This document shows, piece by piece, positions 29,213 through 34,213 of a stretch of 64,000 nt of DNA; the first letter of the stretch is position 1; each line of letters starts with the position of its first letter. Position numbers and translations under genes: made by a program. This DNA comes from Chrysomallon squamiferum (taxonomy: Eukaryota > Animalia > Mollusca): contig CM022665.1 in NCBI GenBank assembly GCA_012295275.1, forward strand, positions 23,250,001 through 23,314,000, written 5' to 3'. The notes beneath the pieces are model-generated. The model did no database searches and was not told where the DNA came from. It saw only the letters and a list, made by a program, of their open reading frames with translations.

Positions 29213-32200
29213 ATGAGAAGCTACATCTTTGTTCTTGCTGTACTGATATTTACTACAGGTAAGTTCTCTGTTTTATTATAGTGAACTGGGAGGGAAATAA
29301 AATAAAATATTACAAGATACAAAAGGTAACAACATAACTAAGAAAATACGAAAATAGATTAACAGAACAGATAATATAATCGTAAATATCATATAAAATA
29401 TATTTTCTTGGCAAAACATACGGAACAGTTTAACACAACTTCAGAAGTAGAGAGAATGAGCTATGAGTAGACTGGTGACAGAAGTTTATTACAGATGTGT
29501 TTAGTGGGGACTTTCGTCGATGATTTTCCAATGGCGTGTTTTCCACTTCATGTCCAGCTGCTGATTTTTCAAAGTCGTGACAGGTCTTTATTACATGTAA
29601 AACAGATGAAGTGAAAAATGAGTGTTATGTTCCCCTGGTTTTATCTTAGGCAGAAAGAAAAAGTCTAAGAAACAAACCTTTTTTGCTACTGATGTAATAA
29701 CACGTATCTACTTTGTATGTTTGTTTGTTTGTTTGTTTGGGTTTTTTGAGGGGGGTTTGATGATGGATGGTGTTTTTGTGGGGTATCATTTATTATTATT
29801 ATTATTTTCTTGCTATGTTTTGATTTTAAACTTCAGTTGTTTTCTCTAGTATTTCTTGAGCAGTAGTTTCAAAGCAATGTATGTTGAACTTTTTTTTTCA
29901 GTTTCTGGTCAGTTCTGGGACTGTAGAAATCCACAACTGAATTGTACTTCTCCTGGAACATGCGATGCCAGTGGAGTTTGCACTGGATGCCCGGATTCCG
30001 GTTACGACTGTGGATTAGACAGCGGTAAATACGAATGAAACTAATTTTTATATTTAAACAACAACGGAAAGGTTTTAAATCTGATTTCTATCGAGAAATA
30101 GCACAACTGATTTCTCTAAGGATGTTTACTTATTATTCAATTTGGTCACTGTTTTATCACGTATACATTTAATTAAACACACGTACGTAAGTAAATAGAC
30201 CAAAGACAGATGAATATTTTAAAATATTTTAAACTTCAAGAAACTTCATTTTCTAAGGATGCTTACAAAAAAATAAAAATAATAATAATATTAATAATAA
30301 TAATAATAATAGACCAAAAAATAAATATCTAATATTTTTGTAATATTTTTTTTCTTCCACAGCTAACATAGATAAAAACGACTGCGCAACTGTTTCGTGT
30401 TCAAATGGCGGCACATGTACAGATGCTACAGCGAACGACACCTCAGTAACCTGTTACTGTCCCCCTGAGTACATGGGAGATACTTGTGAGACTCCACGGT
30501 GTAAGTACAACACACCCTAAATTATCGTTGCCGTTGTTGGTGCTGCTGTTGTTACCTTTATTGTTCATCTTCTTGTACTGTTTCTTGCGCTTGTTATACT
30601 TTCCTTCTTTAGTTTTTACTTGTCACGATTAGTTTTATCAGTAAATAATTTAATTATCTTATTGTTATTGTTGTTGTTGTTATTATAATTATTATTATTA
30701 TTATTATTTACATTTTAATTAGTTTGATCGCTTAAATGAAAGATTAGAACATGCGCACATATATACTATTATTGTTATTATATTATTAGTATTAATATTA
30801 CTATTACTATTATTATTACCATGATTGTCATTAGTATTATTATTATTATTATTATTATTATTATTATGTTCTGGTTGTTGTTGTTGTCCTTGTTGTTGTT
30901 GTTTACTGTCTATTTTATTCTTGACAGTTTCCGTGGTATGTCACTTGACATCTATGGGTGTATCTGTAAACCCTGCATTTACTCCTAATGGAGGTATTTA
31001 CGTTTTTGGTCATCCTGACTGTAAACTGTCTCGAAGTGGAAATGGTCCGTACACGAAAACATTAGACCACGTTGATGCAACGTGTGGTACCATTGCTGAA
31101 ACGACGTCAGGCGTATGTTATTAAATACGTTTATATACTGACTCAGCCGTCATATATTTACTTATTTATTTATTTTAGTATCTTTATTTACTACATGAAA
31201 AATACTTAAACACGTGTCGCAAACACACACACACACACACACACAAGCACCTACGTACATACTTCTAAATATAGACATACACACAGAATGAACCAGAATC
31301 AACAGCAAATGTTTTTTTATAACCAAATGAAGTAATACAAAACGATGTGGAAATCGACTAATACGAAATTTTTAAAACTTTAAACATCATCAGAATTACG
31401 CATTAAAATACTGCACCCTAAAAATTATTTTGATATAATAATTACTAATGAAAAAAGCATCATTCATTTATGTGTTATAATTAATAATGTGAACCAGATA
31501 CACTTCAGTATTTCGTTTTAGTCAATATTTTCTCTTTTTGCTGTTGGCTTTTTGTATGCCAATCGGTATTTCCAAGTAATTATAACTCAAATAAAATTTA
31601 AAGTTTATTATAAAAGCATATTTTGTATTTTCCCTTCATTTTCAGTTTAAACGTTTTCATTTTTAATGTTTTGTCTTCAGTTCATTTAGTTCATTTATTT
31701 TATTATACAGACTAAAAAAACCTGGGAAAGAAAATTATTAGTTCAAGAAGACGCAGCAGTGGTAACAGACGCCGATTTCATTGTTAAATTCACGTGTACT
31801 TTCGATGGAGAGACACTGGTTTCACACACAGTAGCAACAGTAAACATTGATGATAGGTATGTTCATATATATAACATCTTTATTTCATTAAATACTGACA
31901 TTCTCACATAATGGAAATAGTACTTTTAAAAGATATTCCTTCCTGTACCATAGTTTCATTTGAATAGATATGTAAGAGAAACATTAAATACTTTTGAAAC
32001 AATACTGGTGGATGGATGATTGAATATACAGATTATTCTTTTGACAAATAGACAGTGACAGATATGTATCTAGAGAGATAGATTCAGATATTTTCAGAAT
32101 GATTTCAAGATTCATTATATAACTCAAACGTCATAACGAAATTGTAGACTACGTAATACTGAGATTTTGTTGTAGTAACAGTATTATCTTAACGTATAAC

Positions 32201-34213
32201 AAACAGCTTTGCTCAGTATTTTTATTAAAATATTTGTGTATCAGTGTTTTATTCACATATAGTTTTACCTAAATCAACATTTAAATTTTCATCACTTAGT
32301 TTTTATTCATTTACCTTCACTCTTACTCGAAGATGTCTCATTCTTAAAACTGATTTAATTTTACAGCACTGGTTTGGGTGAAGTTACACAAACTGGAGAG
32401 TTCGGAAAGGTGACATTGACAGCTTCTCCTGCTGCTAAGAATCTAGTCGTTGGAGAAGAAGTCACCTTTACCTTGACAGGAGATACTGGTATCATTTTAA
32501 TTTATTTATTACTCCTTAAATAATTACTGGAAATAATTTTTTTTTTTTTTTTTTTTAAAGAACCATTATATTTTGTTATTTGTTTATTTTTATATGATAT
32601 TCTGATTTTTTTCATGCAACATCGTAGCTGACTGGATAACAAGAATCACTTTCATCTCTGTCTCGTCCATTTCTCTCTCTCTCTCTCTCTCTCTCTCTCT
32701 CTCTGTCTGTGTGTGTGTCTGTGTATGTGTGTGTGTCTAGTACATACGTATGCACACTAATTCACTCTCTGTCACCACACACATTCCAATAATTACAAAG
32801 AAGAAATTTTGATATTATTATGATTTCAGAATTAGCGAGAATCAGAATTGAGAAAATTGTCGTGTCAGCAGTTGGTGCAACTAAAATTACTATTTTTGAG
32901 AATGGGTATGTACTGATAAAAAAAAAAAAAAAAATCAGTTTGTTGTATTCTTAATCGTTTCTGTAACTCCATCTAACTGTGTGTGTGTGTGTGTGTGTGT
33001 GTGTGTGTGTGTGTGTGTGTGTGTGTGTTGTCTATCTATCTATATATATCGGATTTAAGCCATTTTTATATAACCTCATATATTTTATAATAAGCTCTCT
33101 CTCTCTCTCTCTCTCTCTCTCTCTCTCTCTCTCTCTCTCTCTCTCTCTCTCTCTCTCTCTCTCTCTCTCTCTCTCTCTCTCTCTCTCTCATATGAATGTG
33201 TTTATGTGTGTATGTGTGGGAATTACTGTAAAGGCCATAACCTTCCACAAAAAGATAAATGTAGTATATCTGATCATGGCCTAGAGCAGCAGCATTTAAG
33301 TACATCAAAGGAACAAAGAAAACATCAAATGATTACTGTTTCAGATGTCCGCTGCCTAACAAACAAGCATTCATTGGAGTACCAGCTCCGGCTACCGATA
33401 CAAACACACCAACTCAAGCGACAGCAAAACTTTTAGTTGTAAAATTTACAGGACACGACGAACTGATCTGGTCGTTCACCGTGAAAGCGTGTTTAGCTGG
33501 CGATAATTCTTGTGACGCTGCATCGGTTAGTTCAATGTGAATTTGAAAATATAACTTTGTCTAATTGACCACATATTGTTGTAAATCAGAATTTAACCAC
33601 TAAGTAACTAATTAACAACAACGATGATATTATTTTAATTTCTGGAAAAAATAATAAAGACTGACATTGTAATATCCTTTCCTCCATATAGCATTAGTGA
33701 GTTAGGTACAATATACGACAATGATTATACGCAAATATGCATTATATATTTTTGTATACTGCAGTGTGCAAAAAGGCGAAGAAGATCAGCTGGTGTTCTT
33801 CCTGACAATTCCACTGAAGTGGTCAACTACAGGATCAACGTGGTCGAATCACATCAAAATCGTAAGTAAACTCTCTCTCTCTCTCTCTCTCTCTCTCTCT
33901 CTCTCTCTCTCTCTCTCTCTCTCTCTCTCTCTCTCTCTCTGTGTATTTAGTCCAGTTAAATTACATTTTTTTCCTCTTTCTTTTCCCAGTGATTGAACAA
34001 CAAAGATCCTCTGGCGGTGAAACAGAATGCGTCGACGTCAACAAAATGACGGCGGCTGTGGTTGCGATGGCGGTGGCGTGTTTCATCCTCCTCGTGATCT
34101 GCCTCGTTTTCATTGTTCGAGTTGTGTCATCACGACGTAATGTGGATGGCAGCAAACAGAATCTGTACGAAACAGGGTCCTACGGCATCCCACGCATGGT
34201 CGCCAAACAATAA
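29213..34213 (+). CDS. EGF-ZP protein copy 3 (445 aa; most divergent ectodomain)
   Basis: Exons 29213-29258, 29902-30024, 30363-30500, 30928-31112 (one-codon deletion), 31711-31856, 32367-32488, 32830-32905, 33345-33525, 33765-33861, 33990-34213. GT-AG introns, frame intact, all Cys retained. Confidence 0.9.

What the first reader, a model, noticed from the sequence alone, without database searches (positions are those of the whole stretch)
29902..33525. Strong excess of amino-acid-changing differences confined to the released ectodomain
Hand comparison of copy 1 vs copy 3, replaced codons vs purely silent codons: exon 2 4/0, exon 3 11/0, exon 4 19/3 plus a one-codon deletion, exon 5 2/0, exon 6 9/2, exon 7 6/0, exon 8 9/1, totalling about 60/6. 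Exon 1 is identical and exons 9-10 show 3/5. No Cys is lost and there is no stop or frameshift. The first roughly 380 bp of intron 1 are nearly identical between these copies, so exons 3-4 have diverged more than that intron stretch. A neutral expectation is roughly 3:1. Inference: positive selection on surface residues, as known for ZP-domain gamete-recognition proteins such as abalone VERL/VEZP, or a host-microbe arms race.
Basis: partly seen in the sequence, partly recalled or inferred. Interest (0 to 1): 0.9.

Follow-up and report, generated by a model that had tools for sequence, protein, structure and literature searches.

The report
Fast-evolving snail surface-filament gene array
A tandem array of secreted-filament (EGF plus zona pellucida) genes in what is likely a deep-sea vent snail shows about two to three times more amino-acid change in its outside part than neutral drift predicts, a real but moderate signal of positive selection that likely reflects contact with microbes at the body surface rather than egg-sperm recognition.

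Summary
Observation confirmed. The window holds three complete copies and one partial copy of a 10-exon gene: signal peptide, two EGF domains, ZP module, KRRRR furin site, transmembrane helix. Copy 1 vs 3 differ at 60 replaced and 6 silent codons in exons 2-8, and 3/5 in exons 9-10. RNA contigs match copy 3 and its introns 3-9. Standard codon models give ectodomain omega 3.4-4.1. With the AT-biased mutation spectrum of the introns it falls to 2.7 (p=0.003). The signal is strongest in exons 3-4 (EGF2, first half of ZP-N: 2.7x the intron rate); exons 5-8 alone are not significant. Changes avoid cysteines and the hydrophobic core. The only full-length relatives found are from the vent snail Gigantopelta (57-58% identity), so the host is probably the scaly-foot snail (inferred). 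The architecture is that of the molluscan EGFZP mantle proteins; the ZP-N model resembles uromodulin far more than VERL. Gamete recognition is unsupported. Published tables list a tandem 'EGF-like' trio, two of them highest in scale-secreting skin, but I could not tie it to this array by sequence. Positive selection about 80%; microbial driver about 45%.

The parts
29213..34213 (+).
   Evidence: introns 3-9 spliced in RNA contigs
29213..29258 (+). C exon 1, signal peptide (identical in A); a splice acceptor just upstream of the ATG suggests an unseen 5' non-coding exon
29902..30024 (+). C exon 2, EGF-like domain 1 (6 Cys); 5 of 39 sites vary among A, C, D
30363..30500 (+). C exon 3, EGF domain 2; 11 of 44 sites vary
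   Evidence: Pfam EGF_2 E 1.8e-5
30928..31112 (+). C exon 4, first half of ZP-N; most variable exon (21 of 65 sites), one-codon gap against A and D
31711..31856 (+). C exon 5, last ZP-N strands and start of the interdomain linker; conserved (3 of 48 sites vary)
32367..32905 (+). C exons 6 (32367-32488) and 7 (32830-32905), linker and first half of ZP-C; 17 of 66 sites vary
33345..33525 (+). C exon 8, second half of ZP-C; 12 of 62 sites vary, mostly private to copy A
33765..34213 (+). C exons 9 (33765-33861) and 10 (33990-34213): KRRRR furin site, predicted external hydrophobic patch, TM helix, tail; purifying selection (omega about 0.2 with exon 1)
11295..16366 (+).
17707..19527 (+). Copy B, partial: last 11 bases of exon 6 and exons 7-10, right after the 200-N gap at 17507-17706
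49509..54568 (+). Copy D, complete, 446 aa; nearly identical to A over introns 2-3 and exons 3-4, nearly identical to C over exons 8-9

Best explanation
These are intact tandem copies of an EGF-EGF-ZP membrane precursor whose released outer part shows an excess of amino-acid change that likely reflects positive selection on exposed residues, most likely driven by microbes meeting a filament coat on the snail's skin. Shown: the gene structure; transcription of copy C; the excess (omega about 2.7, highest in EGF2 and the first half of ZP-N); invariant Cys and a spared core; purifying selection on the furin-to-tail part; patchwork similarity between copies. Inferred from the uromodulin mechanism: furin cuts at KRRRR, the hydrophobic patch leaves, and the ZP modules interlock into filaments through the linker and last ZP-N strands, which would explain why exon 5 is nearly frozen while outward loops change. 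Inferred: unequal crossing-over and gene conversion keep the copies about 5% apart in introns and shuffle blocks between them, while selection retains differing surfaces. Inferred, unproven: the animal is the scaly-foot snail and the genes are expressed in scale-secreting and mantle epithelium. Odds: positive selection about 0.8; microbial driver, given that, about 0.55.
For: Omega 3.6-4.1 for A-C, 3.1-3.3 for C-D, 3.0-3.2 for A-D in exons 2-8, vs 0.13-0.23 in exons 1, 9, 10. Site models stay significant after partitioning and with intron-derived mutation rates (ectodomain M1a/M2a p=0.0008, whole gene p=0.015). Exons 3-4, A-C: 36 nonsynonymous changes vs 13.4 expected from flanking introns, p=2e-5, with synonymous changes as expected, 4 vs 4.3. 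Independent site split: codons that differ between two Gigantopelta paralogs carry 52 changes vs 33.3 expected (p=0.004), conserved ones 25 vs 41.3 (over-conservative unfiltered introns). Both lineages changed: at A=D vs C sites, 13 match Gigantopelta in C, 13 in A/D, 14 neither, 1 both. No GC-biased conversion: 20 AT>GC vs 48 GC>AT. The same ectodomain bias appears in scale-less Gigantopelta, 25/126 differences in ZP-C vs 3/89 after the furin site, which fits a recurring pressure. ZP-N fold nearest uromodulin, a ZP filament that traps bacteria (PMC7737619 passages). Scaly-foot sclerites carry microbial films (PMC12383625 passages). The candidate genes 6860_4.3/4.5 are skin-high but appear only in sheets 22-25 of that supplement, not in the proteome sheets.
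Against: Only three full copies. A and D are near-identical in exons 3-4, so that hotspot is a single comparison. Exons 5-8 alone: omega 1.8, p=0.17. C-D and A-D nonsynonymous totals are 1.21x and 0.86x the intron rate, not significant. Synonymous changes are scarce (12 vs 20-23 expected, p=0.01-0.04), which inflates omega. The exon partition was chosen with the data in view. No microbial ligand, tissue expression or polymerisation was tested. The link to published gene IDs and to the species is circumstantial. The Gigantopelta comparison is protein-only, without dN/dS.
Confidence: 0.45

Rival explanations
1. Positive selection is real but comes from matrix building: copies are being retuned for different hard-part jobs (scale, periostracum, shell) and bind different matrix partners, as co-opted EGFZP proteins.
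For: EGFZP proteins are mantle-expressed, and the oyster ZP domain pulled down 8 known shell proteins (PMC9290575). In scaly-foot snail tables, 6860_4.3 and 4.5 have 220 and 1770 TPM in sclerite epithelium vs 1-2 in gill, and 4.3 is placed in the co-opted cluster III. An 'EGF-like domain-containing 1' family has 9 copies vs 2 in Haliotis, expansion p=8.9e-10, and genes so annotated are among those raised in scale epithelium.
Against: None of these IDs was tied to the window by sequence. The 6860 genes were not found in the proteome sheets, whereas the single-copy, mantle-high EGFZP 3114_3.3 was. Scale-less Gigantopelta shows the same ectodomain bias. Changes fall on both lineages rather than in one burst.
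Confidence: 0.25
2. Relaxed constraint: redundant copies let surface residues drift neutrally, and a chance or constrained shortage of synonymous changes makes omega look above 1.
For: The three-copy nonsynonymous total is 77 vs 62.6 (filtered introns) or 75.2 (unfiltered) expected; synonymous 12 vs 20-23. Null models put all sites at omega 1. The direction of change follows the AT mutation bias.
Against: Neutral drift cannot exceed the intron rate, yet exons 3-4 do so 2.7-fold (A-C) and 2.0-fold (C-D). The unfiltered intron count includes visible misalignments next to repeats. Core and Cys positions are constrained, so an average at or above neutral needs acceleration elsewhere. No stop or frameshift in any copy.
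Confidence: 0.2
3. Gamete recognition: an egg-coat ZP protein evolving against a sperm ligand, as abalone VERL/VEZP do.
For: ZP egg-coat proteins are the textbook case of positive selection (PMC13361971 passages). No gonad expression data were seen, so it is not excluded.
Against: The architecture is EGFZP, which PMC9290575 places in a family separate from VEZP. There are no tandem ZP-N repeats. VERL is a weak fold match, TM 0.44 vs 0.63 for uromodulin. The probable host appears to fertilise internally via spermatophores (PMC4470333).
Confidence: 0.07
4. Artefact: consensus errors, or alleles assembled in tandem.
For: A 200-N gap and a truncated copy B show that the array is hard to assemble. 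Copy A was not checked against reads.
Against: Copy C exons match RNA and DNA contigs almost letter for letter, and A/D letters occur in two DNA runs. Four copies exceed two alleles. Errors would not spare Cys, core and tail, nor keep the frames open.
Confidence: 0.03

Closest known systems
Molluscan EGFZP / LUSP-17 family (PMC9290575)
   Same: Signal peptide, two EGF domains, ZP module with 8 Cys, basic furin site, TM helix; tandem copies (3 in Lottia). The Atlas top cluster for the Gigantopelta relative is 'EGF-like domain-containing protein 2', Mollusca, score 0.97.
   Different: No Pfam ZP hit for P0003, P0014 or P0015, whereas the scaly-foot proteome EGFZP has one at E 2e-15. No Lottia, Haliotis or bivalve protein was recovered. 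Recent near-identical copies with omega above 1 are not reported in the parts of that paper I read.
Gigantopelta aegis XP_041353273, XP_041353270/272, XP_041351110
   Same: 57-58% identity over the full length for P0003 and P0014, same Cys pattern, near-identical TM helix; several copies, each on a contig of the same length; ectodomain-biased differences.
   Different: The window copies form their own clade (support 100), so expansion or homogenisation is lineage-specific; they have a longer tail.
Uromodulin / GP2 (vertebrate ZP filaments that trap bacteria)
   Same: EGF directly before ZP-N; membrane precursor released by cleavage; best fold match of the ZP-N model (E 6.6e-4, TM 0.63); weak sequence match over EGF+ZP-N (E 0.012).
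   Different: No D8C domain seen; a TM helix instead of a GPI anchor; copies A and D have no N-glycan site in the released part, C has two; not a member.
Abalone VERL / VEZP
   Same: Molluscan ZP proteins; positive selection.
   Different: No ZP-N repeat array; EGF domains present; weak fold match (E 0.32); no evidence of egg-coat expression.

Membership tests
EGFZP | Signal peptide, two tandem EGF-like domains | tested here: met
   Hydrophobic N-terminus judged by eye; 6+6 Cys; EGF2 Pfam E 1.8e-5; EGF1 by Cys pattern only, no Pfam hit
EGFZP | ZP module with 8 conserved Cys | tested here: met
   4+4 Cys; the ZP-N model of the relative P0003 (pLDDT 66.5) matches uromodulin, ZPD and ZP3; Atlas TM 0.48-0.55 to ZP proteins
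EGFZP | Pfam PF00100 detectable | tested here: not met
   No hit for P0003, P0014, P0015 or single window exons; the spliced window protein itself could not be scanned
EGFZP | Furin site (RRRR/RKRR) then TM helix | tested here: met
   KRRRR and a hydrophobic helix in all four copies
EGFZP | Falls in the EGFZP clade of a ZP tree | not testable with these tools
   No Lottia, Haliotis or Pinctada EGFZP sequence was retrieved
EGFZP | Mantle expression / presence in shell matrix | tested here: inconclusive
   Transcribed, tissue unknown; candidate published IDs are scale-epithelium- and mantle-high but unlinked, and absent from proteome sheets
VERL / VEZP | Tandem ZP-N repeats (VERL) | tested here: not met
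   One ZP-N only
VERL / VEZP | Ovary expression, egg-coat location | not testable with these tools
   No gonad data seen; 'gonad' has 0 occurrences in PMC7142155 main text
Polymerising ZP-module proteins | Filament formation after cleavage | not testable with these tools
   Cleavage site and a long linker are present in sequence; polymerisation is inferred from PMC7737619

The most novel reading that the evidence does not exclude
This array is the gene family most strongly switched on in the skin that builds the scaly-foot snail's iron-sulfide scales, and its copies are under ongoing positive selection to present different filament surfaces that select or repel the sulfur bacteria coating the armour: a non-reproductive ZP arms race at the base of an evolutionary novelty.
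Probability: 0.2. Interest if true: 0.8.

Novelty: new variant of a known kind. Interest (0 to 1): 0.52.

Why it matters
Adaptive evolution of ZP proteins is known mainly from egg coats. A case in a likely somatic, skin or mantle ZP family would widen that picture, and it gives a concrete candidate for how vent snails manage their surface microbes or tune their armour. The conserved exon 5 beside variable loops predicts which surfaces build the filament and which meet the outside. Paralog-level positive selection on extracellular proteins is, however, a common pattern, and the driver is untested.

Tried and rejected
No whole genome is held, so copies outside the window and synteny could not be examined. 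The exon 5 protein search found nothing (11 candidates, none scored). PDB sequence searches with exon 4 and exon 5 gave only chance hits or none. Of 11 hits, 8 were multi-stretch repeat-like matches and were dropped; 3 were kept. The full-length AlphaFold model of P0003 was unusable (pLDDT 38.5), so surface mapping rests on a ZP-N model and on hydrophobicity, not on solvent accessibility. Per-site posteriors are uninformative (every changed site scores 1.0) and were not used. GC-biased conversion rejected. Multi-hit codons do not explain the excess: single-hit codons give 57:7, p=0.006. Conversion sparing exons more than introns is not supported: intron divergence near exons equals that far from them. 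Variable ZP-C sites do not overlap significantly with those between the Gigantopelta X1/X2 forms (p=0.30). Searches of earlier findings returned nothing. Supplement searches for a short N-terminal motif found no sequence to link gene IDs; file 13 of PMC7142155, two PDFs of PMC11871041 and the cut end of its spreadsheet were not seen and may bear on that link. No paper reporting selection on this family was found (open-access library only).
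Full report
Anatomy. A self-comparison shows a tandem repeat with start codons 17.9 and 20.3 kb apart. Each unit carries one + strand gene of 10 coding exons: A 11295-16366, C 29213-34213, D 49509-54568, and a partial B (exons 7-10) after a 200-N gap. An ORF scan and tblastn with two relatives found no other gene in the window. 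The protein reads as signal peptide, two 6-Cys EGF domains, a ZP module with 4+4 Cys, KRRRR, a hydrophobic helix and a short tail. RNA contigs splice across introns 3-9 of copy C at the predicted joints (tables 5 and 8).

The observation. A vs C: 60 replaced and 6 silent codons in exons 2-8, none in exon 1, 3/5 in exons 9-10. Copy C is not a consensus error: contigs of runs X9 and X10 match its exons with 2 and 0 other letters, and 9 of the 11 exonic variant letters shown are the A/D letters. Copy A was not checked against reads.

How strong. Pairwise GY94 under four frequency models gives exons 2-8 omega 3.6-4.1 (A-C, p about 1e-4), 3.1-3.3 (C-D) and 3.0-3.2 (A-D, p about 0.03), against 0.13-0.23 for exons 1, 9, 10. 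My own site-model code on A, C, D gives LRT 15.3 with one tree and 11.5 with five branch-length partitions to absorb conversion; GARD and codeml were not run. These models overstate the case. In the introns G/C sites change about three times as often as A/T sites, and codon positions 1-2 are GC-richer. With that spectrum fixed, ectodomain omega is 2.66 (p=0.003), exons 3-4 3.66 (p=0.01), exons 5-8 1.82 (p=0.17), and whole-gene M1a/M2a p=0.015. Against the intron yardstick, A-C nonsynonymous changes are 1.63x in exons 2-8 (p=0.001) and 2.69x in exons 3-4 (p=2e-5); C-D 1.21x (not significant) and 2.05x (p=0.001); A-D 0.86x. Over three copies the total is 77 vs 62.6 expected (p=0.04) or 75.2 with unfiltered, partly misaligned introns, and synonymous changes are low, 12 vs 20-23. 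Part of the ratio is therefore a synonymous shortfall, and the firm hotspot is one comparison, C against the A/D type. Three points tip me to selection (about 0.8). That hotspot clearly exceeds neutral introns while its synonymous count does not. An independent split by Gigantopelta conservation shows 1.56x at variable codons and 0.61x at conserved ones. The core is visibly constrained (6/82 vs 62/241). GC-biased conversion and multi-hit codons were excluded.

Where the changes fall. Variable sites among A, C, D: signal 0/18, EGF1 5/39, EGF2 11/44, ZP-N exon 4 21/65, exon 5 plus linker 3/48, ZP-C 29/128, furin site onward 2/104. On a ZP-N model of the relative P0003 (pLDDT 66.5), 16/50 loop positions, 6/35 polar strand positions and 1/21 hydrophobic strand positions vary. 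This shows avoidance of the core; spatial clustering was not tested.

What it is. An exon 4 profile against 1.84 billion representatives found one full-length relative, from Gigantopelta aegis, and further searches added only proteins of that species. Identity is 57-58%, and the window copies group together to the exclusion of the Gigantopelta ones. [quoted passage not shown] The Atlas places P0003 with a molluscan EGF/ZP cluster (0.97) and Foldseek matches the ZP-N model to uromodulin first and to VERL weakly. The domain order equals EGFZP as defined in PMC9290575 (parts 1-4 of 9 read), a mantle family separate from VEZP. It is a divergent branch: Pfam does not detect its ZP module, unlike the single-copy EGFZP of the scaly-foot hard-part proteome, 3114_3.3.

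Literature lead, unproven. In supplement 3 of PMC11871041 (rows searched; main-text passages and half of the Discussion read) a second orthogroup, OG0000741, holds three neighbouring models (6860_4.3, annotated 'EGF-like', 4.5 and 4.22). They are the only IDs with that prefix in the held text, which would fit an array of otherwise empty 20-kb units. 4.3 and 4.5 reach 220 and 1770 TPM in sclerite epithelium, 66 and 183 in mantle, 1-2 in gill; 4.22 is barely expressed. None appears in the proteome sheets. PMC7142155 supplements list a 9-copy 'EGF-like domain-containing 1' family as expanded, and scale-enriched genes of that name (section 7 read). That annotation is shared by several families and no sequence was available, so I give the link about 0.55.

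Mechanism. By analogy with uromodulin (PMC7737619 passages), cleavage would free the ZP module to polymerise through the interdomain linker and ZP-N/ZP-C contacts. The frozen exon 5 and post-furin region fit that, leaving EGF2 and the loops exposed (inferred). The driver is open. Changes on both lineages and the same ectodomain bias in scale-less Gigantopelta (25/126 vs 3/89, protein only) look like a recurring pressure rather than a single retooling for scales. Scale surfaces bear microbial films (PMC12383625 passages). I therefore rank a microbe-facing coat first (0.45), matrix specialisation second (0.25), relaxed constraint third (0.2) and gamete recognition low (0.07); the probable host appears to fertilise internally (PMC4470333 passages).

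Novelty. The family architecture and its tandem habit are known. I found no report of positive selection on it (passages of PMC13361971 and bioRxiv 2025.08.02.668274; open-access library only). Verdict: a real, moderate signal in a likely somatic ZP subfamily; new variant of a known kind; interest 0.52.

Noticed in passing
window 17507-19527: Copy B starts at the end of exon 6, right after the N gap. In Gigantopelta, 'isoforms' X1/X2 (P0016/P0014) are identical through ZP-N and differ at 28 residues from about exon 6 on. Both might reflect a duplicated 3' half giving alternative ZP-C modules, or simply assembly gaps.
   Followed up: partly
window 30072-30182 joined to 30363: RNA contig 19 of X9 begins inside intron 2 and splices from an internal GT to exon 3: a cryptic donor, an alternative first exon or a processing intermediate (one contig, depth 4.9).
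   Followed up: no
window 30372 and 30392: Run X1 shows two exon 3 letters found in none of copies A, C, D; by my reading of the frame both would change the residue. This suggests a further copy or allele.
   Followed up: partly
window 1-400 and 63000-64000: Both window ends match inter-gene parts of the roughly 18-20 kb repeat unit, so the array probably continues on both sides.
   Followed up: partly
introns 2-3 of A (12165-13020) and D (50320-51156): A and D differ at 3 of 554 aligned intron sites here but at about 7% in introns 7-8, where D resembles C instead: a gene-conversion or crossover mosaic.
   Followed up: yes
exon 3 of A, C, D: EGF2 keeps C-S-N-G-G-T-C, which fits the O-fucosylation consensus as I recall it; not tested.
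   Followed up: no
P0004, P0011: Short unnamed ENA proteins match exon 4 at 34-38% identity to P0003, probably single exons of the same family from another animal.
   Followed up: no
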